Origin: Acetobacteraceae bacterium
GTDB lineage: Bacteria > Pseudomonadota > Alphaproteobacteria > Acetobacterales > Acetobacteraceae
Direction: 5' to 3'
NCBI GenBank assembly: GCA_020853405.1
Contig: JADYYZ010000336.1
Location: 1-33,945, forward strand
DNA: 33,945 nucleotides
Shown here: positions 1,226 through 28,777 of the stretch, piece after piece
Layout: each line of letters opens with the position of its first letter
Position numbering within the stretch: position 1 is the stretch's first letter
Notes under the pieces: generated by a model
Databases searched by the model: none
Seen by the model: the letters and a program-made list of their open reading frames with translations, nothing else
What the model was told of the DNA's origin: nothing
Position numbers and translations under genes: made by a program

Positions 1226-1241
1226 GCTTCCTCCCGTCGGG

Positions 1242-2288: not shown

Positions 2289-2830
2289 GGCTTCAGCCGC
2301 GTGCGCACGCGGCGCAGCACGGCATTGGCACTGCGGATCAGCAGGTTGGGGCCGAACCAGCGCAGCAGCGCCGCGCGCCGGCGGATGCGCCCCGCCACCC
2401 GGCGACGGTCGGCCAGCGCCAGGCCGACGGCGCGCACCAGGCAGGCATCGGCCAGCGCCTCGGCGAGTGTCGCCACGTCCTCGTCCTGCCCCGCCACCAG
2501 CAGGGCCGGCGGCAGCCGGTCGCGCTGCGCCAGGGCGGAACCGACGGCACCCAGCACCGCCACCGCGTCGCCCGGCTTCAGGCCGGTCAACAGCAGCACC
2601 GGCACGCGGTCGTGGGGGAGGGTCAGCAACGCGTCCGCGAAGGCTTCCGGCCGCATGCCGCTGCGCGCGATCATGGGCGCGAGCGGCCGTGCATCCCCGC
2701 CGGGCGCGAGGTCGCCGCGGCCGAGCATCACCACGGCGCACGGGGCCTGGCCAAGCAAGGGCAGCAAGGCGGCCGGCAAGCGCATTGGCGCCGCCTCGCC
2801 GGGGCGGCGCGGCAGGACGGCGAGGATCAT
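2285..2830 (-). CDS. Hypothetical protein, 181 aa, no recognisable domain
   Basis: This is the terminal part of ORF 2285..4630 (MILAVLPRRPGEAAP...RRVRTRLKP). Its ATG at 2828-2830 overlaps the stop (2827-2829) of the upstream 590-aa gene as ATGA. Its own stop overlaps the GTG of the next gene. It is called mainly from this coupling and from GC3 bias. Confidence 0.55.
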   Translation of the reverse strand: MILAVLPRRPGEAAPMRLPAALLPLLGQAPCAVVMLGRGDLAPGGDARPLAPMIARSGMRPEAFADALLTLPHDRVPVLLLTGLKPGDAVAVLGAVGSALAQRDRLPPALLVAGQDEDVATLAEALADACLVRAVGLALADRRRVAGRIRRRAALLRWFGPNLLIRSANAVLRRVRTRLKP

Positions 2831-4599
2831 GGCAGCGCCGACCGGATGGCGTGCCGCAATCCGCGCCAGCCGCGGGGATGGTAGGTGACGCGCCGGCTGG
2901 CGAAGGCCAGCTGCAGCGCCGCCACCAGCGCACCGAAGCGCGAGCCGGGGGGGGCATATTCCGCCAGGGACTCGTGGAACATCGGCCCGCGCGGGCGTGC
3001 CGCGAACAGGCGCAGCAGCTCCGGCGACTGGTCCAGCAGATGCCGCTTGGCGCCGCTGCCGTTGGCCAGCAACAGGGCCACCAGCTCGCCGCGGCGGTGA
3101 TATCCGACCTGGTCCAGCAGCACCTGCCGTTCCCAGTCGGCGACGAAACGGGCCACCGCTGCCGCCGTGCGCGGCAGGCTGGCCCCGAGCACAGCGGCCA
3201 CGATGGCCTCCAGCCGCAGCGTCACCCCGTGCCGGCCGCGCCAGCCGGCGCCCCCGGGCGGCGGCAATCCTGCCGGCAGATAGGCGGCGGCGAAGCGTGC
3301 CAGCCGCTGCTCGGCCTCGCCGCGCGCCATCTTGATCAATGGCTTGCGCGGCAGCGGCAGCACCTCCAGCGGTGCGCGCACCTGGCGGACGCGTCCGTCG
3401 GGCAGTTCCGCGCGCACCGCGCCGGCAAAGGACAGGATCGGCCGCGACGTCAGCGAATAGGTGACCGTCCACGGATTGCAGCGGCTCGGGATGCCCTGCG
3501 CGGCGGCGCGCAATCCGTGCTCGACATCCTCGAACTCGGTCCAGTGCAATCCCTCGTCCTGCGGGCAGGCGCGCCACACCGCGCGCTTGGCCAGGCACAG
3601 GCTGCCGTTGACGAAGCTGAGATCCGGCACATGCCGGCGCGGATGGGCCAGCGCGAAGCCGGTGCGCTCCACCTCGGGCAGCACCGCGGGGGCGAAGGCG
3701 CTCGGCGCCGTGCCCGCGCGCGGCATCCCGAGCAGGTCGCGGGCGACCGGACGGTCGACGACACCCAGGTCGGAATAGCGTCGCGGCAGGGCATTCCAGC
3801 GGTCGTCGAACCACAGGCTCTGGAACGCCACCAGCGGGTAGGCATCGCCGAAGCGCCGCACCGCATCCATGAAGTCGCGCGGCAGCAGGATGCGGTCGTG
3901 GAACAGGCACAGGTTGGGGTGCGATGCCTCGGCCGCGAGCCGGTTCTTCTTGGCGCTGATGTTGAGCGGCGGCGCCGGCGGCAGGTCCAGTCCCACGATG
4001 CGCACCTTGTCGCGATGGGCGAAGCCCGGCCCCGGCTCGCCGCACAGCAGGATCTCGCAGCGCGGCACGCCGAGCGCCAGCACGCGGGCAACCACCAGGT
4101 TGAGCAGTGTCGCGTCTTCGGGACCCACCGGAATGCCGAAGGTCCAGGCATCGAGCCCCGGTTCGGTCTCGGCCGGAAGTGGCGCCAGCTTGCGCAACAC
4201 CATCGCCCCGGCCTCGTCGGCATCGCGATGCAGATGTGGCGCGAAATACCCTCGTGTCAGCAAGCTCGGCCGCGCTGCCTCTGCCGCCGGCTCCATCACG
4301 ATGGCGGCACCGACCGGCAAGGCATGGGCGAGGTCCCACAGCAGCAGCGGCGCCAGCGGGCTGTCTTGCTCGATGGCATGGCAGACCACATCGCCGGTCG
4401 GCGGGCTGTCGCGAAACGGTCGGGCGAGACCGTCGACCGTCACCGCCCCCCCGCCATCCACCCCGCCAACCGCGGGAGAGCGGAAGCTCAACAGCGCCGC
4501 GCCGCGCGTGCGGGCGACGGCCAGCAGGGCGGGATCGAATGGCGGCAGCGCGGCCGGCGGTGCCATGCCGAGGCCGCGCGCGTGACGCAGCAGCGGCAT
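2827..4599 (-). CDS. Large GT-A-fold glycosyltransferase-like protein with uncharacterised N- and C-terminal regions (590 aa)
   Basis: This is ORF 2827..4599. The central block WTFGIPVGPEDATLLNLVVARVLALGVPRCEILLCGEPG...NISAKKNRLAAEASHPNLCLFHDRILLPRDF follows the GT2/GT-A layout, with HDR where DxD is expected. About 140 aa at the N-terminus and about 200 aa at the C-terminus are unassigned. The start ATG (4597-4599) shares one base with the upstream stop (TGATG). Confidence 0.7.
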   Translation of the reverse strand: MPLLRHARGLGMAPPAALPPFDPALLAVARTRGAALLSFRSPAVGGVDGGGAVTVDGLARPFRDSPPTGDVVCHAIEQDSPLAPLLLWDLAHALPVGAAIVMEPAAEAARPSLLTRGYFAPHLHRDADEAGAMVLRKLAPLPAETEPGLDAWTFGIPVGPEDATLLNLVVARVLALGVPRCEILLCGEPGPGFAHRDKVRIVGLDLPPAPPLNISAKKNRLAAEASHPNLCLFHDRILLPRDFMDAVRRFGDAYPLVAFQSLWFDDRWNALPRRYSDLGVVDRPVARDLLGMPRAGTAPSAFAPAVLPEVERTGFALAHPRRHVPDLSFVNGSLCLAKRAVWRACPQDEGLHWTEFEDVEHGLRAAAQGIPSRCNPWTVTYSLTSRPILSFAGAVRAELPDGRVRQVRAPLEVLPLPRKPLIKMARGEAEQRLARFAAAYLPAGLPPPGGAGWRGRHGVTLRLEAIVAAVLGASLPRTAAAVARFVADWERQVLLDQVGYHRRGELVALLLANGSGAKRHLLDQSPELLRLFAARPRGPMFHESLAEYAPPGSRFGALVAALQLAFASRRVTYHPRGWRGLRHAIRSALP

Positions 4600-5480
4600 C
4601 AGGCGGGACCGGCGGCCTGCACCGGCGCATCGGGGAACTTGTCGTCCGGTGCGCCGGGCACCTTCACTGCCACCAGCAGCACGTCGCTCAATGCCTCGAA
4701 CTCGCTCACCGTGCCGGGCGGCAGCACGATGCCGTCTCCGGGGCCAAGCAGCCGCGCGCCCATCCGGGCCCGCCCCTCCAGCAGCAAGGTCACCTCGGTG
4801 GCGACGCGATGGTGATGCAATGCCTCGCGCGCGCCGGCAGCAAAACGCTTGACCGCCACTTCACAGCCCGGTGTGTGCAGGGCGGTCGGTGTGAACGGGC
4901 CGACGAACCAGCCGCGCATCATGTCTTCGAGCCGGAACCCGGTTGCGCCGGGCCGGACGCGTGCCACCGGATGCTCGGCACTCTCCAGCGACAGCAGCGC
5001 GTCCGCCAGGCCGAACCGCGTGGGCGTCCCATGCGCCTTGAGCAGGCAGCTCCGGCCGGCTGCCACCAGAAGATCCCCTCGCGCCAGCCAGCCGAGATCC
5101 ACAACCGCGGACCCGTTGACCGCGACTGCGGCCCGCTGACCGGACGCCGGCAGTGACCGCAGCCAGGCTGCCAGCGGACCTGGCGCGAGCGGGATGGCCG
5201 CCTGCGCCAGCTCGCCGGCCGCGAGCACCAGAAGGCTGTCATCGGCGTCGATCCGGTCGGCCGCCAGCAGCGCGGCGCACAGGTTGCCGCCGGTGCCGGC
5301 CGGCAGCATGATCCGTTCGATGCCGTCCAGCGCCGCGCCTGCGCCAGCGGCACTCGCCGCGTCGCAGACGGCCAGGATCGCCGCTGGCGCCAGCACCTGG
5401 CGCGCCGCGGCGGCCAAGGCCGCCAATTCGCCGGCCACCGGCGTGGCGAGCGTGCCATCGGCCACCAGCAGCGCCTTCAT
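4599..5480 (-). CDS. Cupin-domain protein with an uncharacterised N-terminal domain (sugar-modifying enzyme candidate)
   Basis: This is ORF 4599..5480. The C-terminal ~110 aa (EVAVKRFAAGAREALHHHRVATEVTLLLEGRARMG...GDGIVLPPGTVSEF) has the two-motif cupin pattern. The ATG at 5478-5480 overlaps the HAD gene stop (5477-5479) as ATGA. Confidence 0.7.
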   Translation of the reverse strand: MKALLVADGTLATPVAGELAALAAAARQVLAPAAILAVCDAASAAGAGAALDGIERIMLPAGTGGNLCAALLAADRIDADDSLLVLAAGELAQAAIPLAPGPLAAWLRSLPASGQRAAVAVNGSAVVDLGWLARGDLLVAAGRSCLLKAHGTPTRFGLADALLSLESAEHPVARVRPGATGFRLEDMMRGWFVGPFTPTALHTPGCEVAVKRFAAGAREALHHHRVATEVTLLLEGRARMGARLLGPGDGIVLPPGTVSEFEALSDVLLVAVKVPGAPDDKFPDAPVQAAGPA

Positions 5481-6106
5481 GCCGCCGCGCGCCCGGCCTC
5501 GGCGATGGCATGATGCAGGCTGTCAAGGTGGATGTCGGCGAGGCCGCGCACCACCATCACATGGGCGCCGGCGGCGCGCGCGGCGGCGATGCCGTTCGGA
5601 TTGTCCTCGACCACCAGGCAGGCCGCCGGCGGCATCTCGAGCAGGGCTGCGGCCTTCAGATAGATCTCCGGGTCCGGCTTCGGCCGGGTCACATCCTCGT
5701 TCGAGAGCGTCACCTCGATCAGCCCGGCGAGGCCGCAGCGCTGCAGCACCAGATCGACGGTGCGGCGCACCGAGTTGGAGGCAAGGCCGATGCGGTAACC
5801 TTCTGCGCGCAGCTGCGCGATCGCCTCGCGGTGGGCCGCCACCGGTACGGCGACCGCCGGCAGCAGTTCCTGGGTGAAGTCCTGCTTCAACTGGTTGATG
5901 AGGTCGTGCAGCCGCACGGGCAGGCCGCGTTCGGCTGACAGGATGGCCAGCTTGTCGCGCGTGGCCAGGCCGTTGAAGCGCGCCACGTGCTGTTCGCGGG
6001 TTATGCGGTGACCGAACAGGGCAAGTGCCCGGTCCAGCGCCTCGAAATGGCAATCGGCGGCATCGACCAGCACGCCGTCCATGTCGAAGACGATACTACG
6101 TATCAT
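5477..6106 (-). CDS. HAD-superfamily hydrolase (beta-phosphoglucomutase/phosphatase-like)
   Basis: This is the lower part of ORF 5477..6322. HAD motif I is FDMDGVLVD, followed by GLASNS, a K-P-PDPEIY block and VVEDNPNGIAAARAAG. The start MIRSIVFDMDG at ATG 6104-6106 has GGGAGA about 13 nt upstream. It is the first gene of the minus-strand operon. Confidence 0.85.
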   Translation of the reverse strand: MIRSIVFDMDGVLVDAADCHFEALDRALALFGHRITREQHVARFNGLATRDKLAILSAERGLPVRLHDLINQLKQDFTQELLPAVAVPVAAHREAIAQLRAEGYRIGLASNSVRRTVDLVLQRCGLAGLIEVTLSNEDVTRPKPDPEIYLKAAALLEMPPAACLVVEDNPNGIAAARAAGAHVMVVRGLADIHLDSLHHAIAEAGRAAA

Positions 6107-6300
6107 GGCGGCGCCGATCTCCCTTGTGTTCGGACCGATGGGCATGGCGTGGACCGTGCCAATGCCGCCTGCGGCGCGGATGCGGTGGCCACCGCGGCCA
6201 ACATATGCGGGGACTGCCCTGCGCTCTGTCAAGCGCCGGCGTGGCCGCGCCACGGTCCGGCAACGAACCCGATATTCGGCCCGCCATGTGCCGGAACGGA

Positions 6301-6323
6301 TTTGCAACACATTGAAGTGCAAA
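6301..6323. promoter_or_regulatory. Candidate operator: TTTGCA-N11-TGCAAA inverted repeat in the divergent intergenic region
   Basis: The sequence tttgcaacacattgaagtgcaaa has perfect 6-bp arms. It sits in the only AT-rich patch between the HAD operon start (6106) and the 6442 gene. I can assign no regulator. Confidence 0.25.
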
Positions 6324-6441
6324 TCTTTTCTTGTGTACCTCGACGCGGATTTCCACGAAATCGGATGCGCATGTCGCTTGCGTCGCTCCGGCCGCTGTGG
6401 TGAAGTGGCGGCATTGGAAGCATCTGGAAGCCCGATTCGCC

Positions 6442-7227
6442 ATGGCGTCCCGCCGCACCCTCCAACGGCGTCTGCTGACTGCGCTGACGGGCGTCGTCAT
6501 GGCTGCCATGACAACGCCTGGCGTGGCGGCGGTTCCGGGAGGCTGTGGCGTGGCATGCCTCGTTCCTGTGCGGCTCGAACGCCTCGGCCGGGATGCGGCC
6601 GTGGTGCACCTTCCGCCCGATGTGCCCCATTCCGCCGCCGCGGCGAAATTCGATGTGCCGACAGGGCTGCCCGAGGTCGCGCACGTCGCCGTCACGCTGT
6701 TCACCGACGCGGTCACGGCGCAGCCCCTCGCGACGACCGATCCCGACGGACGTCTCGGCGCGCTGGTCGCGCTGTTCCGCGACGTTCCCACGCCCGCCTG
6801 GCAGGCGGCGTTGGGGGAAACGGCGCCGGGGGCGGAAATGGCCGCCACCGCCTTGTTCCTGGCACCGCAGGGGCCGTGGCGCCTGCCGGTTCCGCCCGGT
6901 GCGGCCGGTGGTGGCCCGCCGGTGCAGGTGCCGCAGGCCTTCATGCTGGTGCGCCCCGCCGCGGGCTGGCCGTTCGACCGGGTGCTGATGCATGGGGCGG
7001 CCACCCTGCGCCATGGCCTGCGGCCGCGGCCCGGTCTGCTTGCCGAGGCGACGGTCGAAGTGGTCGACGGCCCTCGCGCCGTGGTGGCCGCGGGCAGTTT
7101 CGCCGGCCAGGATGGGCTCTATTTCCGTGCCGTGCTGCCGCCTGACTTCGCGCCGTCGGCGGCGCAGCGTTCCGCGTTTCTTGCCGCCCTCGCGCACGCG
7201 CTGGGCTCCTGCATAACGCCCGGCTGA
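6442..7227 (+). CDS. Hypothetical exported protein (261 aa)
   Basis: This is the inner part of ORF 6331..7227. It starts at ATG 6442 with MASRRTLQRRLLTALTGVVMAAMTTPGVAA, which has twin arginines, a hydrophobic core and an AxA-like site. GC3 bias is consistent with coding. It lies 28 nt upstream of the RTX protease gene on the same strand. No family is recognised. Confidence 0.55.
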   Translation: MASRRTLQRRLLTALTGVVMAAMTTPGVAAVPGGCGVACLVPVRLERLGRDAAVVHLPPDVPHSAAAAKFDVPTGLPEVAHVAVTLFTDAVTAQPLATTDPDGRLGALVALFRDVPTPAWQAALGETAPGAEMAATALFLAPQGPWRLPVPPGAAGGGPPVQVPQAFMLVRPAAGWPFDRVLMHGAATLRHGLRPRPGLLAEATVEVVDGPRAVVAAGSFAGQDGLYFRAVLPPDFAPSAAQRSAFLAALAHALGSCITPG

Positions 7228-7255
7228 GCCGGGGAGACTTTAGGGAGGAATTCCA

Positions 7256-10200
7256 ATGGCCACCGCCACCGCACATACGCCTGTCGCCAACGATGTCACC
7301 CGGGCGGTCGAGGGCAACCAGAAGTGGAGCACCACGACCCTCTCCTATGCCTATGCCGGGGCGGCCGACGCGGCGTTCATGACCGCCGATCTCACGGCCA
7401 AGGGACTTGCGGCCTTTCCCTACAAGGTGCTCGATGCCGGCGGCAGCACCGACGTGTTCCGAAACATGACGCAATGGGCGATGTCGCAGGCCTCGCGCGT
7501 CGCCAATATCGACTTCACCGCGGCCGCCGACTTTGCCAGCGCCGATGTCAAGATCTCAGGCATCCAAGGGCTGAGCTACACCGGCCAGGCCGACTTCCCC
7601 GGCACCAACGCCAAGGTCGGCGGCGGGGACGAGACGGTGGTCGTGCTGCTGACCCACAATGCTGACGGCACGCCCTATTTCGCGGCAGCCCTGCCCGGCG
7701 CGGCCGGGGAATCCGGCTTCTCGCGCTACATCGCGATGCACGAGTTCGGCCACGCCATTGGCCTCGGCCATCCGCACGACACCGGCAACGGCACCACCGC
7801 CATCGCCGCGGTGGCCGCGACCAGCAGCGACGACCCGCTCGACAATGACCGCTACACGGTCATGTCCTACGAGTTCGGCGGCTCCAACGCCTCGAACTTC
7901 CAGGCCTTCGGCAACGCCGCCAGCTACTCGGCGCTCGACATCAAGGCGCTGCAGGATCTCTACGGCTCGCGCGCGGCCAATACCGGCGCCAGCAGCTACG
8001 CCCTGCGCGATGCCGGCGGCGGCGGCACGCTCACCGGCGAGGCCGTGGCGATCTCGCGGTCGTTCTACACGATCTGGGACACGGCAGGGACCGACGCGAT
8101 GGTCTATGCCGGCGCCAACCGCGTGGTGCTGAACCTCAACGACGCCACGCTCGACCGCACCGACGATGCCACCACCACCGAATGGCTCGACATCCTGACC
8201 AGCACGCCGACCTACGCGGCGCTGCCCGACGAGATCAAGAAGGACCTGATGCTGCCGAGCTACCATGCCGGCGGCTTCATCTCCCGCGTGTTCGACATCT
8301 CGGGCAACGTGCAGCTCGGCGGCTATACCATCGCCAATGGCGTCACCATCGAGAATGCCGCCGGCGGCACCGGCGACGACGTGATCATCGGCAACGAGGC
8401 CGACAACTCCCTGCTCGGCGATGCCGGCAATGACATGATGATGGGTGCGGCCGGCAACGATACCATCAACGGCGATGCCGGCGACGACATCCTCGTCGGC
8501 GGCAGCGGCAACGACACGCTGAACGGCGGCGAGGGCCAGGATCTCGCCATCTTCAGCGATATTTGCGCCAACTACGACATCACCCGTGACGACAGCACCG
8601 GCGTGATCACGGTCAAGCACGTGCGTGGCTCCGGCGCCGACGGCACGGACACGCTGGCCGGCGTGGAGAAGGCGCTGTTCAAGGGCTCGACCGTCGACCT
8701 CACCGCCACTCCGCTGGGGTGCCCGCCGATCGACTTCATCTTCCTGGTCGATCTGTCCGGGTCGTACTCCGACGACCTCAGCCGCTTCCAGGCCCAGGCG
8801 CGCGAGATGGCGGCGGCGGTGCGCAGCCTGGATCCCGAGTCGCGGTTCGCGCTGGCCTCCTTCGTTGACCGGCCGGTGTCGCCCTGGGGCTCGACCGGCG
8901 ACTACCTCTACAAGCCGGAACTGGCGCTGACCGACAGCATTCCGGCCTTCGAATCGGCGCTGGGCGGGCTCACCATCTTCAGCGGCAACGACTACCCCGA
9001 GGCCCAGTTCGTCGGCCTGTGGCGCGCCGCCAATGGCTACGGCCTCAACCTGCGCCCCGATTCGCAGAAGATCATCCTGCTCGCCACCGATGCGCCGCCG
9101 CACTCGGCGTCCGATTACGGCCTCAGCGAAGCGACGATCAGTGACTTCCTTGCCAAGGAAGGCATCATCGGCATCGCCTCCAGCGCAACGGCGGATGCCA
9201 CCGCCGCGGCGCCCAGCGACACCACCGTCAGTGCCGGCGACGGCGGCCTCGCCAAATCCGATGTCGAAACCTCCGTCGGGTACGATGTGGATCCCGGCAA
9301 TCCCGATACCCGCGACGTGCTGACCCGGCTGCTCGATACGCTGATGGCCTCGCGCGGTGTCCAGCCGATCTTCGCCGTCACTTCGAGCGTGACCAGCACC
9401 TACTCCGCCTTCAACACCTCTTTCGGCCGTGGCACCACGGTGCCGATCGACAGCAGCAGCAGCGACATCGCCGACTCGCTGCGCCTTGCCCTTGCCGAAC
9501 TCTACGGCGATGTGACCGCCAGGGGTGACAATTCCGACAACATCCTGATCGGCACGCCGGACCGCGACAGGATGTACGGCCTGGGTGGCAAGGACCGCAT
9601 CGAGGGCCGCGAGGAAAACGACACCATCGACGGCGGCAACGGCGACGACCTGCTCTACGGCCAGGAGGGCGACGACCTCATCGAGGGCGGCGGCGGCAAC
9701 GACTTCATACATGGCGATCTCGGCCTGAGCGGGCCCAGCGGTGACGGCAACGACACGCTGCGCGGCGGCCTCGGCAGCGACTTCATCATCGGCGGCGGGG
9801 GCAACGATACGCTCGACGCCGGCGCCGATGGCGGGGCGGCCGACTACCTGTTCGGCGGCACCGGCAACGATACCTATATCGTCAACGGCGTGACCGACCT
9901 GGTCTACGAGGGCGACCTCATCGCGGGGTTTGAGGGTGGTGCCGGAGACTTCGACACCATCATCTCCACCGGTGAGGTCTTCCGCGACTACTACTCGGTG
10001 GGCGAGAAACTGATCATCGCCGAGGCTGCCAATGTCGATTTCCCCGATGGCACCTACATCATTGGCGGCGCGGGCATGGCGCACACCGAGATCGTGGGCA
10101 ACAGCGGCGCCAACTTCATCCTGGCCTATGGGGGCGACAACACCATCAAGTCGGGCGGTGGCGACGACTCGATCTCGCTCAGCCTCTACGACCTTGATGC

Positions 10201-10483
10201 GTCGGCCAACGGGGTGAACACCGTCGTGATGCAGGCCGGCACGGGCCGCGACTTCATCTATGATTTCGAGAGCGGCATCGACAAGGTCGACGTCTCCGCC
10301 TTCGGGCTCGACGCCGCCGGCCTGTTCGGCACCGGCGTCGATGTGGCCGCGGCGGGCGGCAACGCGGCCTACTGCTACTTCTACCTGGGAGAGACCAGCG
10401 GCACCTTCAACTACGTCGCCTTCGTCGATCGCAGCACCTCGCAGATCGCGGCGAACGACTTCATCTACACCTCCGCGGCCTGA
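7256..10483 (+). CDS. Serralysin-type (M10B) zinc metalloprotease / RTX calcium-binding protein with an inserted integrin-beta-like VWA domain; probable type I secretion substrate
   Basis: This is ORF 7256..10483, preceded by GGGAGGAATTCCA-ATG.
- The metzincin signature HEFGHAIGLGHPHD is at aa 162-175 (nt 7739-7780).
- The Met-turn is YTVMSY (aa 200-205).
- The sequence is colinear with serralysin blocks: LSYAY, ANIDF, ALDIKALQDLYG, FYTIWDTAGTD and GVTIENAAGGTGDDVIIGN.
- There are two blocks of GGxGxD nonapeptide repeats.
- The C-terminal GRDFIYDFESGIDKVDVSAFG matches the serralysin/T1SS C-terminal motif.
- There is no N-terminal signal peptide. Confidence 0.95.
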   Translation: MATATAHTPVANDVTRAVEGNQKWSTTTLSYAYAGAADAAFMTADLTAKGLAAFPYKVLDAGGSTDVFRNMTQWAMSQASRVANIDFTAAADFASADVKISGIQGLSYTGQADFPGTNAKVGGGDETVVVLLTHNADGTPYFAAALPGAAGESGFSRYIAMHEFGHAIGLGHPHDTGNGTTAIAAVAATSSDDPLDNDRYTVMSYEFGGSNASNFQAFGNAASYSALDIKALQDLYGSRAANTGASSYALRDAGGGGTLTGEAVAISRSFYTIWDTAGTDAMVYAGANRVVLNLNDATLDRTDDATTTEWLDILTSTPTYAALPDEIKKDLMLPSYHAGGFISRVFDISGNVQLGGYTIANGVTIENAAGGTGDDVIIGNEADNSLLGDAGNDMMMGAAGNDTINGDAGDDILVGGSGNDTLNGGEGQDLAIFSDICANYDITRDDSTGVITVKHVRGSGADGTDTLAGVEKALFKGSTVDLTATPLGCPPIDFIFLVDLSGSYSDDLSRFQAQAREMAAAVRSLDPESRFALASFVDRPVSPWGSTGDYLYKPELALTDSIPAFESALGGLTIFSGNDYPEAQFVGLWRAANGYGLNLRPDSQKIILLATDAPPHSASDYGLSEATISDFLAKEGIIGIASSATADATAAAPSDTTVSAGDGGLAKSDVETSVGYDVDPGNPDTRDVLTRLLDTLMASRGVQPIFAVTSSVTSTYSAFNTSFGRGTTVPIDSSSSDIADSLRLALAELYGDVTARGDNSDNILIGTPDRDRMYGLGGKDRIEGREENDTIDGGNGDDLLYGQEGDDLIEGGGGNDFIHGDLGLSGPSGDGNDTLRGGLGSDFIIGGGGNDTLDAGADGGAADYLFGGTGNDTYIVNGVTDLVYEGDLIAGFEGGAGDFDTIISTGEVFRDYYSVGEKLIIAEAANVDFPDGTYIIGGAGMAHTEIVGNSGANFILAYGGDNTIKSGGGDDSISLSLYDLDASANGVNTVVMQAGTGRDFIYDFESGIDKVDVSAFGLDAAGLFGTGVDVAAAGGNAAYCYFYLGETSGTFNYVAFVDRSTSQIAANDFIYTSAA
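8363..8545 (+). repeat. RTX nonapeptide (GGxGxDxUx) repeat block 1, a coding repeat inside the protease gene
   Basis: The block covers aa 370-430: GGTGDDVIIGNEADNSLLGDAGNDMMMGAAGNDTINGDAGDDILVGGSGNDTLNGGEGQD. Confidence 0.85.
8723..9505 (+). other. Integrin beta I-like / VWA domain, a domain inside the RTX protease
   Basis: The domain covers about aa 490-750.
- PIDFIFLVDLSGSYSDDL contains the MIDAS motif DxSxS at nt 8750-8764.
- The other blocks are FALASFVDRPVSPW, NDYPEAQF, KIILLATDAPPH, QPIFAVTSSV and GRGTTVPIDSSSS.
- All blocks occur in the same order as the integrin beta I-domain blocks I recall: DLSYSMKDDL, FGAFVDKPVSPY, DAPEGGFDA, LLVFTTDA, LIFAVT and PGTTVG..DSSN. Confidence 0.75.
9524..9880 (+). 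repeat. RTX nonapeptide repeat block 2, a coding repeat inside the protease gene
   Basis: The block covers aa 757-875: ...YGLGGKDRIEGREENDTIDGGNGDDLLYGQEGDDLIEGGGGNDFIHGD...GNDTLRGGLGSDFIIGGGGNDTLDAG...LFGGTGNDTYIV. Confidence 0.85.
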
Positions 10484-10549
10484 TTCACGACGGGGCGGGC
10501 TTCGGCCCGTCCCTTCGCCGCCCACCCTTTCCCTGCCGGCAGGTACCCC

Positions 10550-11332
10550 GTGATGCTCAGCATCGTCATCCCGATGGCCGGTGCTGGCCATCGCTTTGCC
10601 GAGGCCGGCTATGCCGCGCCGAAGCCGCTGATCCCGATCCATGGCGTGCCGATGATCCGGTTGGTCATCGCCAACCTGCGACCGGCCGGCGCGCACCGCT
10701 TCATCTTCATTGTGCGGCAGGCGCAGCTCGACGGCACGCCGACACTGCGCGACCAGCTGGCCGAATGGGCGCCCGGGTGCGGCATCGCCGTGGTTCCCGG
10801 CCTGACCCAGGGCGCTGCCTGCACCGTGCTTGCCGCGCGTGCCGCCATTCCCGACGACGCGCCGATGCTGATTGCCAATTGCGACCAGTGGGTGGAAGCG
10901 CCCATCGGCGTGTTCCTCGCCGCCGCCACCGCCGGCCCGGCACCACCCGACGGCGCCATCCTCACCATGCGGGCCACCGACCCGAAATGGTCCTTCGCCC
11001 GCCGCGGCCCCGACGGGTGGGTGGCGGAGGTGGCGGAGAAGGTGCCGATCTCCAACGAGGCGACCGTCGGCCTCTACTATTTCGCCCGCGCCGGCGACTT
11101 CTTCGCCGCTGCGCTGGCGATGATCGCCGCCGAGGAGCGGGTGAACGGCGAGTTCTACGTCGCCCCGGTGTACAACCGGATGATCGCCGCCGGCGCGCGC
11201 ATCGCAGCCGTGCCGATCGGCGCCGAGGGGGCGGGGATGCACGGCCTCGGCACCCCCGCCGATCTCACCGCCTTCCTCGCCACCGCCGAATCGCATCGCG
11301 CCGCGGCCCTGGCCCGGGCCGATCGCCCGTGA
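10550..11332 (+). CDS. Sugar-phosphate nucleotidyltransferase-like / GT-A-fold protein (capsule or glycan biosynthesis type)
   Basis: This is ORF 10550..11332, starting at GTG 10550 or ATG 10553. The N-terminal IVIPMAGAGHRFAEAGYAAPKPLIPIHGVPMI is the G-rich nucleotide-binding loop of NTP-transferase-like enzymes. Later blocks are LIANCDQW, VGLYYF and GLGTPADL. Confidence 0.8.
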   Translation: MMLSIVIPMAGAGHRFAEAGYAAPKPLIPIHGVPMIRLVIANLRPAGAHRFIFIVRQAQLDGTPTLRDQLAEWAPGCGIAVVPGLTQGAACTVLAARAAIPDDAPMLIANCDQWVEAPIGVFLAAATAGPAPPDGAILTMRATDPKWSFARRGPDGWVAEVAEKVPISNEATVGLYYFARAGDFFAAALAMIAAEERVNGEFYVAPVYNRMIAAGARIAAVPIGAEGAGMHGLGTPADLTAFLATAESHRAAALARADRP

Positions 11333-11943
11333 TGATGCTCGCCCATCGCGGCTTCTGGCGCGCGCGGGCCGAGCAGAACACCATGGCCGCCTTTCGCCGC
11401 GCCTTCGAAGCCGGCCACGGCATCGAGACCGACATCCGCGATTGTGCCGGCCGCTTGGTCATCGCGCACGATCCGCCCGGACCGGATGCGCTCGGCCTCG
11501 ATGCCTTCCTCGACCTCGCGATGCGCTACGCCCATCTGCCGCTGGCCATGAACATCAAGGCCGATGGGCTGGCCGCCCGGCTCACCGGGGCGATGCGTGC
11601 GGCCGGGCTCGCCAACTGGTTCGCTTTCGACATGTCGGTGCCCGATACGCTCGCCTGGCGGGACCTGGGGGCGCCGTTCCTTACCCGCCGCAGCGAGTAC
11701 GAGCCGCCAGCCGCGCTCGATGGCGCCGCCATGGGCGTGTGGCTCGACGCGTTTCATGGCGAGTGGTGGGATGCCGGCACGGTGGAGGCGCTGCTGGCAG
11801 CGGACAAGCGGGTCGCGGTCGTCTCTCCCGAACTGCACGGCCGGACACCGGAGCCGGCCTGGGCCGTGCTGCGCAGTGTACGTCCGGACCCGGGCGCGCG
11901 GCTGCTGCTGTGCACGGACTTTCCGGACCGGGCGCGGAGCTGA
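11332..11943 (+). CDS. Glycerophosphodiester phosphodiesterase (GDPD)-family protein
   Basis: This is the terminal part of ORF 10765..11943. MMLAHRGFW...EQNTMAAFRRAFEAGHGIETDIRD..GRLVIAHD matches the GDPD HRG...ENT...E-D...HD pattern. ATG 11332 shares a base with the upstream TGA (11330-11332). An in-frame GTG at 11329 is an alternative start. Confidence 0.75.
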   Translation: MMLAHRGFWRARAEQNTMAAFRRAFEAGHGIETDIRDCAGRLVIAHDPPGPDALGLDAFLDLAMRYAHLPLAMNIKADGLAARLTGAMRAAGLANWFAFDMSVPDTLAWRDLGAPFLTRRSEYEPPAALDGAAMGVWLDAFHGEWWDAGTVEALLAADKRVAVVSPELHGRTPEPAWAVLRSVRPDPGARLLLCTDFPDRARS

Positions 11944-12149
11944 CGCACCAGACCGCGCGCCGCCGCCCGCGGCCGGTTCCACTGCCGCTCCGGCGTTTCC
12001 CGGCGCTGGCGCATCCCCTTGCGCCGTTGCTGACCGAAGTCGCTGATCCGAAGCCAGCTGGGCCGGCCGCACCGGCGTGGCCCGCGGCATCACCGGTGCC
12101 GACCGCCGAAAGCGCCGGAAGCGCCGGTATGTTCGGTCGTGGCACCATA

Positions 12150-12198
12150 CCAGCCCGCATAAAGGTTGACCCATAAAGCATGGGTCAACGCGGGCTGG
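12150..12198. repeat. Palindromic element 1 (compound hairpin) in a convergent intergenic region
   Basis: The element reads CCAGCCCGC-ataaag-GTTGACCCAT-aaagc-ATGGGTCAAC-GCGGGCTGG. The 9-bp outer and 10-bp inner arms are both perfect. The outer arms and flanks (ataCCAGCCCGC / GCGGGCTGGcat) recur in element 2. Confidence 0.5.
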
Positions 12199-12247
12199 CA
12201 TGAGTCCTTGCTTTGCGCGCGGCCACCGGCCAGCCCCGCGCGCGATA

Positions 12248-12292
12248 CCAGCCCGCGAAACGGCCGGAAGAGTCGGCCATTTCGCGGGCTGG
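12248..12292 (-). terminator. Palindromic element 2; probable intrinsic-type terminator of the phaC-ABC-MFP operon
   Basis: The element reads CCAGCCCGCGAAA-c-GGCCG-gaagagt-CGGCC-a-TTTCGCGGGCTGG. It has a perfect 13-bp outer stem plus a 5-bp inner stem. It starts 2 nt after the MFP stop codon (12295-12297). There is no clear U-tract. Confidence 0.55.
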
Positions 12293-12294
12293 CA

Positions 12295-13551
12295 TTACAT
12301 CGGCACCAGCCTGCGGGCCACGCGGGCCCCGTCGGCGAGGCCTGGTGGTGGGTAGAGCACCACCTCGGTGCCCTCGGCGGCGCCGCCGGTCACCTCGGCC
12401 AGGGTGCCGTTGTTGCGGCCGATTCCGACCTTGCGCGCCTGGGCCCGGCCATCCACCACGGCGAAGATCGCCCATCCGTCGCCGAGGCGGAACAGGGCGT
12501 TCGACGGCACGGTCAGGGCCGCCGCCGCCTCCCAGACGATGATCTGCACTTCGACACGAAATCCGTGGCCGAGGCTGGGCGGCACGGCGGCGGGGTCGGT
12601 GAACGCGATGATCACGCGGACCCGCTGCTCCTCCACGCCCAGCGCCGAGGTCTTGGTGAAGGCCCACGGCTCGATGCGCGCGACCATGCCGCGCAGGGTC
12701 TCGGTGCCGCCCCATTTGCGGATCATCACGCCATCGCCGGGCGCGACCTGAACCGCATCGGTGGACAGCAATTCCGCGACAACCTCAAGGTCGTTCGATG
12801 TGTCGCCGATCTCCAGGATCGGCGTGCCCGCCGTCACGGTGGTGGCGCTCTCCTGCAACAGCCGCAGGATCCGGCCGGAGACCGGCGCGGTCAGCGGGAT
12901 GGTGGCCTCGTCCTCCCCCCCGAGGGTCGGCGCGCCTGATCGCGCTTGCGGGTCGGCGGCGGCGAAGGAGATCAGCTGCGCGCGCTGGTTGGCCAGGTCG
13001 GCCTCGCGCATGGCGACGGTGGCGCGGGCCGCGTCGAGTGCCGCCGTGGCGCCGCGGGCCGCGCGCTCGGCCTCGTCGAACGAGGCCTCCGAGGCGACGC
13101 CGCGGCGGGCGAGCACACGCTTGCGCTGCAACTCGCCATCGGTGAAATCCTTCTCGGCGATCGCTTGCCGCAATGCGGCGCGGGCGGCGGCCACCGCGGC
13201 CTCGGCGGCGGTGATGGCGGCGCGTGCCTGCTCGCGGCTGCGCTGGTCCAGGGCCGGCGGATTGACCGGCAGCATGCGCGCCACCACCGTCCGTCCGCCC
13301 TCCACCGCGTCTCCCGGCCGGGCCGCGACGCGCAGCAGCCTTCCGTCGATCGGGGCGGAGACGACATAGGTGTTGCGCACCCGCGTGCGGGCCTCCTCGT
13401 CGATCGTCACCCGCATGTCGGCGCGCGCGACCCGGCCGATATCGACGGCCAGCGCGCGCGGCCAGAACGATGCGGCCAGCCCGCCGCCCACCAGCAGCGC
13501 CACCAGCGAAATGAGCCAGGTTCGCGAGCGCAGACGCGGCATGCGGTTCAC
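12295..13551 (-). CDS. HlyD/MacA-type periplasmic adaptor (membrane fusion protein)
   Basis: This is ORF 12295..13551. It has an N-terminal TM segment (WLISLVALLVGGGLAA), then a lipoyl-like block (VSAPIDGRLLRVAARPGDAVEGG), a long Ala/Arg coiled coil, a second lipoyl half (LTAPVSGRIL) and a beta-barrel tail. GTG 13549-13551 overlaps the permease stop as GTGA. ATG 13542 is an alternative start. Confidence 0.9.
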   Translation of the reverse strand: MNRMPRLRSRTWLISLVALLVGGGLAASFWPRALAVDIGRVARADMRVTIDEEARTRVRNTYVVSAPIDGRLLRVAARPGDAVEGGRTVVARMLPVNPPALDQRSREQARAAITAAEAAVAAARAALRQAIAEKDFTDGELQRKRVLARRGVASEASFDEAERAARGATAALDAARATVAMREADLANQRAQLISFAAADPQARSGAPTLGGEDEATIPLTAPVSGRILRLLQESATTVTAGTPILEIGDTSNDLEVVAELLSTDAVQVAPGDGVMIRKWGGTETLRGMVARIEPWAFTKTSALGVEEQRVRVIIAFTDPAAVPPSLGHGFRVEVQIIVWEAAAALTVPSNALFRLGDGWAIFAVVDGRAQARKVGIGRNNGTLAEVTGGAAEGTEVVLYPPPGLADGARVARRLVPM

Positions 13552-25462: not shown

Positions 25463-25504
25463 CGGCGATTCCGTTCTGTCGCAACTCGGTCGGCCGGAGG
25501 GCCG

Positions 25505-28701: not shown

Positions 28702-28777
28702 CCGACCATCCGATCCGCCCGGAAGCGGGGTTTGCGAACTGCAGGGCGAATTTTCGTCGATCGCTGCGGGATCGACG

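What the first reader, a model, noticed from the sequence alone, without database searches (positions are those of the whole stretch)
8723..9505. A complete integrin-beta I-like domain sits inside the RTX region of a serralysin-type protease
**Sequence evidence.** The 1075-aa protein is colinear with classical ~470-aa serralysins at both ends.
- Its N-terminal half has the protease domain (HEFGHAIGLGH, Met-turn VMSY) and the first RTX block.
- Its C-terminus has the GRDFIYDFESGIDKVDVS secretion-type motif.
- Between the two lies roughly 550 aa that serralysins lack.

**Why I think the core is integrin-like rather than a generic VWA.** Every block I remember from vertebrate integrin beta I-domains appears in the same order:

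| This protein | Integrin beta I-domain (from memory) |
|---|---|
| IDFIFLVDLSGSYSDDL | DLYYLMDLSYSMKDDL |
| FALASFVDRPVSPW | FGAFVDKPVSPY |
| NDYPEAQF | DAPEGGFDA |
| KIILLATDAPPH | LLVFTTDAKTH |
| QPIFAVTSSV..Y | LIFAVTENV..Y |
| GRGTTVPIDSSSS | PGTTVGVLSMDSSN |

**Inference.** A eukaryote-type adhesion or ligand-binding module fused to a secreted Ca-dependent protease suggests a targeting or substrate-capture function. The domain's origin is also open: horizontal transfer or an ancient bacterial lineage.
Basis: partly seen in the sequence, partly recalled or inferred. Interest (0 to 1): 0.75.

Follow-up and report, generated by a model that had tools for sequence, protein, structure and literature searches.

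The report
Integrin-beta-like domain in secreted protease
A bacterial zinc protease carries a metal-binding adhesion domain of the same type as the ligand-binding head of animal integrin beta chains; the domain is real, but it belongs to a large, little-studied bacterial family and is not a one-off import from animals.

Summary
ORF 7256-10483 (+) encodes a 1075-aa protein: serralysin-type zinc protease, RTX block, a 263-aa VWA-fold domain (aa 491-753, nt 8726-9514), a second RTX block and an RTX cap.

The domain is specifically integrin-beta-I type:
- Pfam Integrin_beta scores 68.5 bits; generic VWA models score about 20, below cut-off.
- A profile of bacterial homologues hits integrin beta3 at 3.7e-38, and all 60 listed PDB hits are integrin beta chains.
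- All top 50 Foldseek hits of the AlphaFold model are integrin beta chains.
- MIDAS, ADMIDAS and 4 of 5 SyMBS residues are conserved.

It is not a complete integrin head. The specificity loop is 18 residues shorter and has no disulfide, the alpha-subunit contact insert is replaced by a partly disordered one, and there is no hybrid domain.

It is not unique. About 40 cluster representatives and 11 reference genomes (overlapping sets), mostly Rhodobacteraceae, share the architecture under generic names. The domain family has hundreds of prokaryotic clusters, and the protease-linked clade is its least integrin-like branch.

Most likely it is a metal-dependent targeting module on a type I-secreted protease; this is inferred, not tested. 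I rate it a new variant of known kinds, of moderate interest.

The parts
7242..7249 (+). Shine-Dalgarno AGGGAGGA, 6 nt upstream of the start codon
   Evidence: sequence read directly
7256..10483 (+). Whole gene: 1075-aa protease-RTX-betaI-like-RTX protein (stop codon included)
   Evidence: GC3 0.89; P0022 is this protein
7256..8305 (+). Serralysin-type (M10) zinc metalloprotease domain, aa 1-350; no N-terminal signal peptide
   Evidence: Peptidase_M10 scores 19.6 bits (below cut-off 24), while relatives pass
7739..7771 (+). Zinc-binding motif HEFGHAIGLGH (HExxHxxGxxH), aa 162-172
   Evidence: conserved in most of the family members checked
7856..7870 (+). Met-turn with Tyr (TVMSY), aa 201-205
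8318..8575 (+). RTX block 1 (six GGxGxDxUx nonapeptides at aa 370-423); colinear with the start of the serralysin beta-roll
   Evidence: (aa 354-422 = PrtC 329-397)
8576..8725 (+). Bridge, aa 441-490 ('...GADGTDTLAGVEKALFKG...'); probably the cap of RTX block 1
   Evidence: the same motif ends the protein in P0046; the cap role is inferred
8726..9514 (+). Integrin-beta-I-like VWA-fold domain, aa 491-753
8750..8776 (+). MIDAS DLSGS (D499, S501, S503) plus ADMIDAS D506, D507 (= beta3 D119, S121, S123, D126, D127)
   Evidence: (invariant or nearly so)
8867..8869 (+). D538 = beta3 D158 (SyMBS ligand), in SFVDRP
   Evidence: invariant
8870..8908 (+). Shortened specificity-determining-loop equivalent (RPVSPWGSTGDYL, aa 539-551); 18 residues shorter than beta3, no disulfide
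   Evidence: alignment; (loop between strands 52-58 and 75-81)
8984..9001 (+). GNDYPE, aa 577-582: G577 (= beta3 N215, substituted), D579 (= D217), P581 (= P219), E582 (= E220, shared by MIDAS and SyMBS)
9086..9094 (+). TDA, aa 611-613; D612 = beta3 D251 (MIDAS)
   Evidence: (T and D invariant)
9095..9319 (+). Subfamily-specific insert replacing the integrin alpha-subunit-contact insertion, aa 614-688: conserved 'DYGLSExTIxxFLxxEGI' helices, then a variable low-complexity stretch
9173..9298 (+). Predicted disordered core of the insert, aa 640-681 (pLDDT below 50); length varies among relatives
   Evidence: (absent in P0002 and P0023)
9515..9955 (+). RTX block 2, aa 754-900 (at least 8 nonapeptides)
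9956..10480 (+). C-terminal RTX cap and putative type I secretion signal region, aa 901-1075 (DFIYDFESGIDKVDVSAFG ... NDFIYTSAA)
   Evidence: AlgE6 R-module 2ml2, E=1.3e-4; the secretion role is inferred

Best explanation
The gene encodes a calcium-dependent zinc metalloprotease of the serralysin type. It is probably exported unfolded through a type I secretion system encoded elsewhere in the genome and folds outside the cell when its RTX repeats bind Ca2+.

Between its two RTX blocks sits a VWA-fold domain of the integrin-beta-I type. It has three adjacent metal sites: MIDAS, ADMIDAS and a slightly modified SyMBS.

I propose that this domain is a metal-ion-dependent binding module, or exosite. 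A carboxylate (Asp/Glu, or an acidic polymer) on a ligand would complete the coordination of the MIDAS cation. That would tether the protease to a substrate protein or to a surface such as a matrix, another cell or a host.

Shown: domain identity, fold, conservation of the metal ligands, and the recurrent architecture.
Inferred: secretion, metal occupancy, ligand binding and the targeting role.
For: Identity of the domain
- Integrin_beta scores 68.5 bits; generic VWA models reach at most 20.6, below cut-off.
- The bacterial-family profile hits beta3 at 3.7e-38, and all 60 listed PDB hits are integrin beta chains.
- The AF2 model has pTM 0.77 and core pLDDT 85-98. All top 50 Foldseek hits are integrin beta chains, E about 5e-15.

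A functional metal site
- D499, S503, D506, D507, D538, D579, E582 and D612 are invariant, and S501 nearly so, across 32 sequences that share only 29-54% identity with the window domain, apart from one at 78%. These align to beta3 MIDAS, ADMIDAS and SyMBS residues. The beta3 residue roles come from established integrin structural knowledge.

A binding role
- Homologous proteases carry other binding modules at the same position after RTX block 1: NIDO at aa 517-682 in P0103, and cadherin-like/Big_9 at 503-597 in P0063.
- 31 of the fetched proteins have the homologous protease without this domain.
- VWA domains that bud from RTX beta-rolls of type I-secreted adhesins are experimentally shown binding modules. 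AhLap vWFA binds diatoms and biofilms (PMC12077191). LapA vWFa is needed for peptide-dependent biofilm (PMC9180339).
- A MIDAS mutant of the beta-integrin-like CglD impairs Myxococcus gliding.

An active protease
- HExxHxxGxxH plus TxMSY are conserved in most of the 25 family members checked.

Secretion
- RTX repeats score 124 bits, there is no signal peptide, and the C-terminal cap resembles those of type I-secreted AlgE R-modules.

Maintained combination
- 28 protease-linked domains form one clade with 190/200 bootstrap support, so the combination is old and retained.
Against: - No ligand is known and nothing here was tested biochemically.
- No HlyB-type type I secretion genes lie in the window. 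The neighbours are MacB-type and ABC-2 exporters.
- No neighbour is conserved among orthologous loci.
- The integrin ligand pocket is incomplete: the specificity loop is shortened, no alpha-subunit partner is evident, and SyMBS Asn215 is Gly.
- The invariant residues are mostly the metal ligands themselves. That would also fit a purely structural metal cluster.
- AhLap's vWFA was not among the 60 PDB matches listed for the family profile, so that comparison is an analogy.
- The window's Peptidase_M10 and Zn_serralysin scores are below curated cut-offs.
Confidence: 0.55

Rival explanations
1. The betaI-like domain pairs with a bacterial beta-propeller (FG-GAP) protein or another bacterial partner, as the integrin betaI domain pairs with the alpha-subunit propeller. 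Its job would then be complex formation or retention on the producer's surface, not capture of a foreign target.
For: A family member, P0024, has six FG-GAP-type repeats with DxNxDG loops downstream of the same domain. In L081 a fragmented copy of the gene lies about 5 kb from an FG-GAP+RTX gene. Bacterial FG-GAP propellers are documented (PMC3192720).
Against: No FG-GAP match was found in any window ORF scanned. No neighbour is conserved among the 11 orthologous loci. The window subfamily has replaced the segment that contacts the propeller in integrins. Only one of the family members scanned against Pfam here carries FG-GAP repeats.
Confidence: 0.15
2. The domain has no ligand. It is a Ca2+/Mg2+-loaded structural spacer or folding nucleus that helps the long RTX protein fold or ratchet out of the type I secretion channel.
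For: The strictly conserved positions are the metal ligands. RTX proteins depend on extracellular Ca2+ for folding (established knowledge, PMC7493085, for adhesins).
Against: 31 homologous proteases do without the domain, and some carry unrelated binding modules in the same slot. A 263-aa alpha/beta domain with three metal sites is an expensive spacer. Every characterised relative of this fold binds ligands at the MIDAS.
Confidence: 0.15
3. The domain was recently acquired from a eukaryote (an integrin beta gene) and lets the bacterium bind host RGD-type matrix ligands.
For: The Trichodesmium case was interpreted as horizontal transfer in the literature (citing Sebe-Pedros 2010). An RGD tripeptide lies just after the domain at aa 756-758.
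Against: There are hundreds of prokaryotic clusters across many phyla. The protease-linked clade is the branch least similar to beta3: median 28.8 bits against 64.5 for other bacterial members. It sits inside the bacterial diversity on the NJ tree. GC3 is 0.89, like the neighbouring genes. Without an alpha subunit and the specificity loop there is no Arg pocket. The RGD is not conserved beyond the closest relatives.
Confidence: 0.04
4. It is an ordinary bacterial VWA domain whose resemblance to integrin beta is a model artefact.
For: Some distant relatives, such as P0155, score higher with generic VWA models than with Integrin_beta. A continuum therefore exists.
Against: For this protein, Integrin_beta scores 68.5 bits against at most 20.6. 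Only 62 distinct PDB sequences pass E<=1e-3 with the family profile, and the 60 listed are all integrin beta chains. The Glu in place of the VWA MIDAS Thr, the ADMIDAS DD pair and the SyMBS Asp are betaI hallmarks.
Confidence: 0.02

Closest known systems
BetaI (betaA) domain of eukaryotic integrin beta subunits (Pfam PF00362), e.g. human beta3 residues 105-359
   Same: Same fold and the same specific family: profile E=3.7e-38, and all top 50 Foldseek hits. It shares MIDAS DxSxS...E...D, the ADMIDAS DD pair, the SyMBS Asp/Asp/Pro/Glu, and the blocks FVDxPVSP, DxPE, TDAxxH and IFAVT.
   Different: The specificity-determining loop is 18 residues shorter with no disulfide. Asn215 is Gly. The alpha-subunit contact insert is replaced. 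There is no hybrid, PSI, EGF, transmembrane or cytoplasmic part and no alpha subunit. The domain sits between RTX repeats of a protease.
Cyanobacterial integrin-beta-like proteins (Trichodesmium erythraeum; Johnson et al. 2009 as cited in PMC3192720; Yutin et al. 2009, PMC2651865)
   Same: A prokaryotic betaI-like domain. Cyanobacterial members in my set (L013, L017 Okeania) belong to the same family.
   Different: They are closer to integrins (about 96 bits to beta3, against 45.9 for the window) and have no protease. The Trichodesmium protein is reported to match more than 450 integrin residues.
[quoted passage not shown]
   Same: A bacterial VWA domain matched to the beta3 betaI domain. Its MIDAS is functionally important, and it acts at the cell surface in a Ca2+-dependent way.
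   Different: CglD is a Cys-rich lipoprotein with EGF-like and COMP-like parts. Its proposed MIDAS uses Thr. It has no RTX repeats and no protease. I did not test its sequence relationship to this family.
vWFA ligand-binding domains budding from the RTX beta-roll of type I-secreted adhesins (AhLap, PDB 9DAS; LapA)
   Same: The same logic and topology. A VWA-fold domain with its own mid-fold insert lies between RTX repeats, upstream of the type I secretion signal, and binding roles are shown experimentally.
   Different: It is not the same sequence family as far as the listed hits show: 9DAS is not among the 60 listed hits of the family profile. The hosts are giant adhesins with retention and extender modules, not proteases.
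Serralysins (M10B): Serratia protease, AprA, PrtC
   Same: HExxHxxGxxH, a Met-turn with Tyr, and an RTX beta-roll after the catalytic domain. The window is colinear with them through aa 422.
   Different: The window protein is about 600 aa longer. It scores below the curated cut-offs (Zn_serralysin 122.6 against 500; Peptidase_M10 19.6 against 24). No inhibitor or secretion genes are adjacent. The C-terminal cap matches generic RTX modules better.
Sister modular proteases of Rhodobacteraceae ('nidogen-like domain-containing protein' of Shimia, Salipiger, Maritimibacter; P0063 with cadherin-like/Big_9)
   Same: A homologous protease and first RTX block (36-44% identity), with a module at the same position.
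   Different: A different module (NIDO, cadherin-like) occupies the place of the betaI-like domain.

Membership tests
Integrin_beta betaI domain (PF00362) | Score above the Pfam gathering threshold and above generic VWA models | tested here: met
   61.1 bits (whole protein) and 68.5 bits (domain) against a cut-off of 24.8; VWA_2 scores 20.6 and VWA_4 19.7, both below 27
Integrin_beta betaI domain (PF00362) | MIDAS of betaI type: DxSxS + Glu (beta3 E220, in place of the VWA Thr) + Asp (D251) | tested here: met
   D499, S501, S503, E582, D612 aligned to beta3; invariant or nearly so in 32 sequences
Integrin_beta betaI domain (PF00362) | ADMIDAS Asp-Asp (beta3 D126, D127) | tested here: met
   D506, D507; invariant
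Integrin_beta betaI domain (PF00362) | SyMBS/LIMBS ligands D158, N215, D217, P219, E220 | tested here: inconclusive
   D538, D579, P581 and E582 are present. N215 is G577, which is nearly invariant as Gly in the bacterial family. Metal occupancy was not tested.
Integrin_beta betaI domain (PF00362) | Three-dimensional fold closest to solved betaI domains | tested here: met
   AF2 pTM 0.77; all top 50 Foldseek PDB hits are integrin beta chains, E about 5e-15, TM about 0.6
Integrin_beta betaI domain (PF00362) | Long specificity-determining loop with a disulfide (beta3 ~159-188, C177-C184) | tested here: not met
   18-residue gap in the alignment and no Cys
Integrin_beta betaI domain (PF00362) | Insertion that contacts the alpha-subunit propeller (beta3 ~253-290, 'AGIVQPNDG...DYPS') | tested here: not met
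   Non-protease bacterial relatives keep 'AGIxxPNNGD...EDYPS'. The window subfamily has a different, longer and partly disordered insert.
Integrin beta subunit (whole receptor chain) | BetaI nested in a hybrid domain, plus PSI, EGF repeats, transmembrane helix and NPxY tail, heterodimerised with an alpha subunit | tested here: not met
   RTX repeats flank the domain directly, and Pfam finds none of these parts. Other bacterial members do show a hybrid-like sandwich. Heterodimerisation cannot be tested here.
Serralysin (M10B) | HExxHxxGxxH zinc site plus Met-turn SxMSY with Tyr | tested here: met
   HEFGHAIGLGH at aa 162-172; TVMSY at aa 201-205
Serralysin (M10B) | C-terminal RTX beta-roll directly after the catalytic domain | tested here: met
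   aa 354-422 align to PrtC 329-397 and Serratia protease 317-389; Peptidase_M10_C scores 28.6 against a cut-off of 20.7
Serralysin (M10B) | Curated family thresholds (NCBIfam Zn_serralysin; Pfam Peptidase_M10) | tested here: not met
   122.6 against 500; 19.6 against 24. It is a divergent serralysin-like M10 protease, not an equivalog.
Serralysin (M10B) | Linked type I secretion genes and/or inhibitor gene | tested here: not met
   Only MacB-type and ABC-2 exporters are nearby. The upstream ORF has no family match and is not conserved.
Type I secretion substrate (RTX protein) | RTX nonapeptides, no N-terminal signal peptide, uncleaved C-terminal signal | tested here: inconclusive
   HemolysinCabind scores 124 bits and the C-terminal cap resembles AlgE R-modules. 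Actual secretion cannot be tested with these tools.
RTX-adhesin ligand-binding vWFA (AhLap/LapA type) | VWA-fold domain with an internal insert, placed between RTX repeats upstream of the secretion signal | tested here: met
   order of parts; insert; description of AhLap
RTX-adhesin ligand-binding vWFA (AhLap/LapA type) | Same sequence family; N-terminal retention module and long extender repeats | tested here: not met
   9DAS is not among the 60 PDB hits listed for the family profile. The N-terminus is a protease.

The most novel reading that the evidence does not exclude
The integrin-beta head is a prokaryotic invention. Bacteria, and at least one archaeal MAG, hold a large and diverse family of betaI-type domains with MIDAS and ADMIDAS intact and SyMBS nearly so. 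Some are nested in a hybrid-like sandwich (P0014 group). Some sit in the same polypeptide as FG-GAP propeller repeats (P0024), and many are deployed on type I-secreted RTX proteins. The window protein would then be one derived use of a pre-eukaryotic adhesion module as a protease exosite, and the 'lone horizontal transfer into Trichodesmium' view in the literature would be wrong in direction and scale.
Probability: 0.3. Interest if true: 0.75.

Novelty: new variant of a known kind. Interest (0 to 1): 0.5.

Why it matters
1. For protease and secretion biology. It defines a recurrent, uncharacterised family of modular serralysin-like proteases, mostly in marine Rhodobacteraceae. An interchangeable binding module sits after the first RTX block. 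This gives a testable model of how secreted proteases are aimed at targets.

2. For integrin biology. A betaI-type domain that apparently folds without an alpha subunit or hybrid domain, and keeps MIDAS, ADMIDAS and most of SyMBS, would be a simple system for studying the three-metal-site mechanism.

3. For evolution. A 2023 preprint still described Trichodesmium as the lone prokaryotic beta-integrin detection until CglD homologues were found in delta-proteobacteria. The breadth found here (at least 152 reference genomes from one peptide pattern; 767 clusters with E<=1e-10) shows the family is far larger than that. This bears on where the integrin head came from.

The window protein itself is one ordinary member of that family.

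Tried and rejected
- Genome scan with the untrimmed alignment A1 failed because no conserved stretch was found. I redid it with the trimmed A2.
- Synteny. No window neighbour is conserved next to the 11 orthologous genes. No neighbour is conserved among those loci either. There is therefore no operon-level clue to a partner, inhibitor or secretion system.
- Promoter and terminator scan of 6000-11500 gave nothing above the shuffle expectation.
- Taxonomic placement. Plasmid megablast gave only about 73-75% identity to Azospirillum and Paracoccus rbbA. PhaC tops out at 71% with mixed alpha- and betaproteobacterial hits. The organism stays an unsampled Pseudomonadota lineage, and I cannot claim it is marine.
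- The 55 Burkholderia plasmid hits at 95-99% are 39-bp matches to a conserved ABC-ATPase motif and are trivial.
- P0020 alone against the PDB found nothing. The hybrid-like flanks needed a structure prediction.
- Same family as AhLap's solved vWFA? It is not among the 60 PDB matches listed for the family profile, so I kept it as an analogy only.
- RGD at aa 756-758 as an intrinsic ligand. It is shared only with the closest relatives and lies at the opposite pole from the MIDAS, so I judged it chance.
- 'Fusion of a serralysin with a stand-alone betaI-RTX protein'. The domain order fits proteins such as P0191, L040 and L018. However, the C-terminal tail matches generic RTX cap units whether or not a betaI domain is present. 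The idea is not specifically supported.
- Closest relative. P0023's contig DNA could not be fetched. P0001's contig holds a frameshift-fragmented copy.
Full report
**The gene.** ORF 7256..10483 on the + strand encodes 1075 aa. Codon-position GC (GC3 0.89, GC2 0.49) marks this strand as coding, so the overlapping 1246-aa antisense ORF is a high-GC artefact. A strong Shine-Dalgarno (AGGGAGGA, 7242-7249) precedes the ATG by 6 nt. The finding's coordinates (aa 490-750) match the domain I delineate at aa 491-753.

**Domain content.** Pfam finds RTX repeats (124 bits, six stretches), Integrin_beta PF00362 (61.1 bits in the whole protein, 68.5 bits for the excised domain, cut-off 24.8) and Peptidase_M10_C (28.6 bits). 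Peptidase_M10 is sub-threshold at 19.6 bits. The generic VWA models reach only 15-21 bits, below their 27-bit cut-offs. NCBIfam's serralysin model scores 122.6 against a cut-off of 500. The order of parts is:
- protease, aa 1-350 (HEFGHAIGLGH 162-172; TVMSY 201-205);
- RTX block 1, aa 355-440;
- a bridge, aa 441-490;
- the VWA-fold domain, aa 491-753;
- RTX block 2, aa 754-900;
- a C-terminal cap, aa 901-1075.

**Is it integrin-beta type or a generic VWA?** Four independent tests agree that it is integrin-beta type.
1. The Pfam score ratio given above.
2. phmmer of the domain against all PDB sequences lists 60 hits, all integrin beta chains. Beta3 is best at 2.5e-12.
3. A profile built only from 32 bacterial homologues (A3) hits beta3 at 3.7e-38 in one stretch covering beta3 residues 105-359. 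Only 62 distinct PDB sequences pass E<=1e-3, and the 60 listed are all integrin beta chains. None of the many solved alphaI or VWA domains appears among them.
4. An AlphaFold2 model (32-sequence alignment, pTM 0.77, core blocks pLDDT 85-98) has the full six-stranded VWA fold. All top 50 Foldseek hits in the PDB are integrin beta chains, with E about 5e-15 and TM about 0.6. The TM-score is held down by a 42-residue disordered insert and the flanks.

**Metal sites.** The alignment to beta3, read with the established roles of beta3 residues, gives this mapping:

| Site | Window residues | Beta3 residues |
|---|---|---|
| MIDAS | D499, S501, S503, E582, D612 | D119, S121, S123, E220, D251 |
| ADMIDAS | D506, D507 | D126, D127 |
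| SyMBS | D538, D579, P581, E582 | D158, D217, P219, E220 |

Beta3 N215 is replaced by G577, and that Gly is nearly invariant in the bacterial family. The coordinating Asp, Glu and Ser residues are invariant or nearly so across sequences that share only about 30-54% identity. The Glu in place of the VWA MIDAS Thr, the DD pair and the SFVDxP Asp are betaI hallmarks.

**What is missing relative to an integrin betaI domain.**
- The specificity-determining loop is 18 residues shorter and has no Cys pair.
- The second integrin-specific insertion contacts the alpha-subunit propeller in integrins. It is recognisably kept in non-protease bacterial relatives ('AGIxxPNNGD...EDYPS' against beta3 'AGIVQPNDG...MDYPS'). 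In the window's subfamily it is replaced by 'DYGLSExTIxxFLxxEGI' plus a variable low-complexity stretch, and aa 640-681 have pLDDT below 50.
- RTX repeats flank the domain directly, so there is no hybrid domain.

'Complete' is therefore true of the fold and the metal sites, not of the integrin-specific elaborations.

**How common is it?**
- The domain alone, searched exhaustively against 1.84 billion cluster representatives, gives 2673 hits at E<=1e-3, 767 at E<=1e-10 and 36 at E<=1e-30. Beta3's 50 bits would correspond to about E=1e-8 at that database size. The 767 are therefore all better matches to the query than beta3 is.
- One degenerate peptide pattern found relatives in at least 152 of 185,579 reference species genomes. 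These include Rhodobacteraceae and other Alphaproteobacteria, Cyanobacteria, Ideonella/Rubrivivax, Polyangiaceae, Thermus, and one Halobacteriales MAG.
- Of the top 150 representatives, 97 carry at least three RTX cores, 15 have two to five tandem copies of the domain, and 14 also have the protease.

**The exact architecture.** Protease-RTX-betaI-RTX recurs in all 11 closest genome loci: Sagittula marina, Ruegeria aquimaris, Sediminimonas, two Pelagimonas, Aquicoccus porphyridii, Rhodovulum iodosum, Aestuariivita, Jhaorihella, a 'Mastigocoleus' MAG and a Pseudomonadota MAG. In each, HExxH lies at about aa 150-180 and the domain at about aa 490-800. It also occurs in about 37 further cluster representatives at 40-75% identity over the full query, and on one Rhodobacteraceae plasmid. 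The genome loci and the cluster representatives overlap as sets. The names given to these proteins are generic ('M10 family metallopeptidase C-terminal domain-containing protein', 'Ca2+-binding RTX toxin-like protein', 'matrixin family metalloprotease'). One MAG protein is named 'Integrin, beta chain'. The precomputed Pfam list for the window protein itself already includes PF00362. The zinc motif and Met-turn are conserved in most of the 25 members checked, while the C-terminal tails differ.

**Position within the family.** Using the beta3 sequence printed, phmmer scores are a median of 28.8 bits for protease-linked proteins (the window, at 45.9, is the maximum). Other bacterial members score a median of 64.5 bits and up to about 100 per domain, with cyanobacterial members among the highest. 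In a bootstrapped NJ tree (171 sequences, 217 columns), 28 protease-linked domains form one clade with 190/200 support. That clade also contains four shorter proteins in which no protease match was found, possibly N-terminally truncated. The two remaining protease-linked sequences join in the next enclosing clades (a first run with a numerical overflow gave the same topology). The fusion thus seems to have arisen essentially once, inside the bacterial radiation, and its domain has since drifted away from the integrin-like consensus. GC3 of the gene equals that of its neighbours. I conclude that a direct eukaryote-to-this-gene transfer is unlikely. The deeper direction of transfer between prokaryotes and eukaryotes is not resolved here.

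**The protease half and the tail.** Residues 354-422 align to residues 312-397 of solved serralysins (PrtC, Serratia protease, AprA), with a second matched stretch reported in each. The last 196 residues match the R-modules of the type I-secreted AlgE epimerases best (2ml2, E=1.3e-4; 'DFIYDFESGIDKVDVSAFG' against 'DLILDFDPTQDKLDVSALG'), and no serralysin is listed. Colinearity with serralysins therefore holds for the N-terminal 420 aa only.

**Context.**
- Upstream, on the minus strand: a methyltransferase, a WavE-type LPS gene, an unknown 677-aa ORF, a cupin-like ORF and a HAD hydrolase.
- Immediately upstream, on the plus strand: a 298-aa ORF with a twin-arginine-like leader and no family match.
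- Downstream: a nucleotidyltransferase, a MacB-type ABC exporter with HlyD, phaC, an RbbA-type ABC-2 exporter, sirohaem and ApbE genes, and a nirS/nirE/nirF/nirD cluster.
- There are no HlyB-type type I secretion genes, no protease inhibitor and no FG-GAP protein.
- No neighbour is shared with the orthologous loci.
- The organism is an unsampled Pseudomonadota lineage. PhaC reaches at most 71% identity to anything, and rbbA about 75% to Azospirillum and Paracoccus.

**Mechanism (inferred).**
- The absence of a signal peptide, the two RTX blocks and the RTX cap point to type I secretion and Ca2+-driven folding outside the cell.
- The invariant three-site metal cluster points to a working MIDAS face.
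- Homologous proteases place other binding modules at the same position: NIDO at aa 517-682 in P0103 and cadherin-like/Big_9 at 503-597 in P0063. Thirty-one of the fetched proteins have the homologous protease without the domain. This looks like a module slot for targeting domains.
- The closest functional analogues are the vWFA domains that bud from the RTX beta-roll of type I-secreted adhesins and carry their own mid-fold insert. AhLap vWFA binds diatoms and biofilms. LapA vWFa is needed for peptide-dependent biofilm. A MIDAS mutation in the beta-integrin-like CglD impairs gliding.

I therefore favour a metal-dependent exosite that tethers the protease to a substrate or surface through a ligand carboxylate (confidence 0.55). 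The rivals are pairing with a bacterial propeller partner (0.15), a purely structural metal-loaded spacer (0.15), a recent eukaryotic import for RGD binding (0.04) and a mislabelled generic VWA (0.02).

**Literature.** Prokaryotic integrin-beta-like sequences have been noted since 2009 for Trichodesmium and other cyanobacteria. [quoted passage not shown] A 2020 preprint found the cyanobacterial homologue hard to place in trees. I found no paper describing an M10/serralysin protease fused to this domain.

**Side findings.**
- P0024, 50% identical to the window protein over aa 1-768, adds a cadherin domain and six FG-GAP-type repeats with DxNxDG loops after the betaI-like domain.
- The signal-peptide subfamility represented by P0014 (named as coming from Actinomycetota MAGs) gives a moderate-confidence model (pLDDT 69.6). 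It aligns to integrin beta headpieces over about 382-392 columns, E about 1e-19. That is the length of betaI plus hybrid domain, so the nested two-domain head seems to exist in bacteria too.

**Verdict.** The protein is nevertheless one member of a recurrent, auto-annotated and experimentally untouched bacterial family. Its domain is a derived bacterial version, not a eukaryotic import. I rate it a new variant of known kinds (serralysin-like RTX proteases; prokaryotic betaI-like domains; RTX-embedded VWA binding modules), of moderate interest. The wider family is more interesting for the origin of integrins than this single gene.

Noticed in passing
P0024 (metagenome protein, 1296 aa; not in the window), aa 508-640 and 1010-1296: A family member 50% identical to the window protein over aa 1-768. 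It combines the betaI-like domain with a cadherin domain and six tandem 49-aa FG-GAP-type repeats, each with a DxNxDG Ca2+ loop. Integrin-beta-type and integrin-alpha-type modules therefore sit in one bacterial polypeptide.
   Followed up: partly
P0014 and relatives P0010, P0015, P0020, P0021, P0012, P0017 (not in the window): These are signal-peptide-bearing bacterial proteins. Their AF2 model aligns to integrin beta headpieces over about 382-392 columns (E about 1e-19), the length of betaI nested in a hybrid-domain-like beta-sandwich. Model confidence is moderate: pLDDT 69.6 from a 7-sequence alignment.
   Followed up: yes
P0103, P0107, P0113, P0063 (not in the window): Homologous M10+RTX proteases of Shimia, Salipiger and Maritimibacter carry a NIDO (nidogen-like) domain at the position where the window protein has the betaI-like domain. 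P0063 carries cadherin-like/Big_9 there. This suggests an interchangeable module slot after RTX block 1.
   Followed up: partly
P0149, P0155, P0171, P0154, P0176 (not in the window): These proteins have three to seven tandem betaI-like/VWA domains. In P0155 the generic VWA models outscore Integrin_beta, so there is a continuum from betaI-like to ordinary VWA within prokaryotes.
   Followed up: partly
L079, 6001-6462 (Halobacteriales archaeon MAG): A 504-aa ORF in an archaeal MAG matches the N-terminal half of the betaI-like domain (38% identity over residues 4-136). I did not check for contamination or for the completeness of the domain.
   Followed up: no
window 6331-7227 (+): A 298-aa ORF ends 29 nt before the protease gene. 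An internal Met is followed by a twin-arginine-like leader (MASRRTLQRRLLTALTGVVMAAM...). It has no Pfam match and is not conserved next to the orthologous genes. GC3 is 0.79, lower than the neighbours.
   Followed up: partly
window 9521-9529 (aa 756-758): An RGD tripeptide lies directly after the last helix of the betaI-like domain (TARGDNSD). It is shared only with the closest relatives P0023 and P0002; other members have AGTDGDD and similar. It is probably chance.
   Followed up: partly
window 9173-9298 (aa 640-681): A low-complexity Ala/Ser/Thr/Asp-rich stretch inside the domain's insert is predicted disordered. It is absent from the 75%-identical relative P0023 and varies in length across the family. 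Its role is unexplained.
   Followed up: partly
L081, about 7733-12425 and 44-2551: A 41-kb metagenome contig holds a copy of the same gene broken into about eight short ORFs, possibly by frameshifts or long-read errors. It is flanked by an FG-GAP+RTX gene and a 478-aa classical-size M10+RTX protease.
   Followed up: no
window 416-6322 and 10550-11943: The protease gene is embedded among surface-polysaccharide-type genes: a methyltransferase, WavE, HAD and a nucleotidyltransferase, plus a 677-aa ORF (2830-4860, minus strand) with no family match.
   Followed up: partly
window 28850-33534: A denitrification cluster: cytochrome cd1 nitrite reductase NirS, a NirE-type methylase, a NirF-like d1 protein and a NirD/L-type regulator. 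On the minus strand just upstream (24497-28812) lie an FMN-binding/4Fe-4S ORF, ApbE and a sirohaem synthase.
   Followed up: no
window 16179-16217 (query positions 11180-11218): A 39-bp stretch in the ABC ATPase gene matches 55 Burkholderia plasmids at 97%. It is a conserved ATPase motif and not a mobile element.
   Followed up: yes
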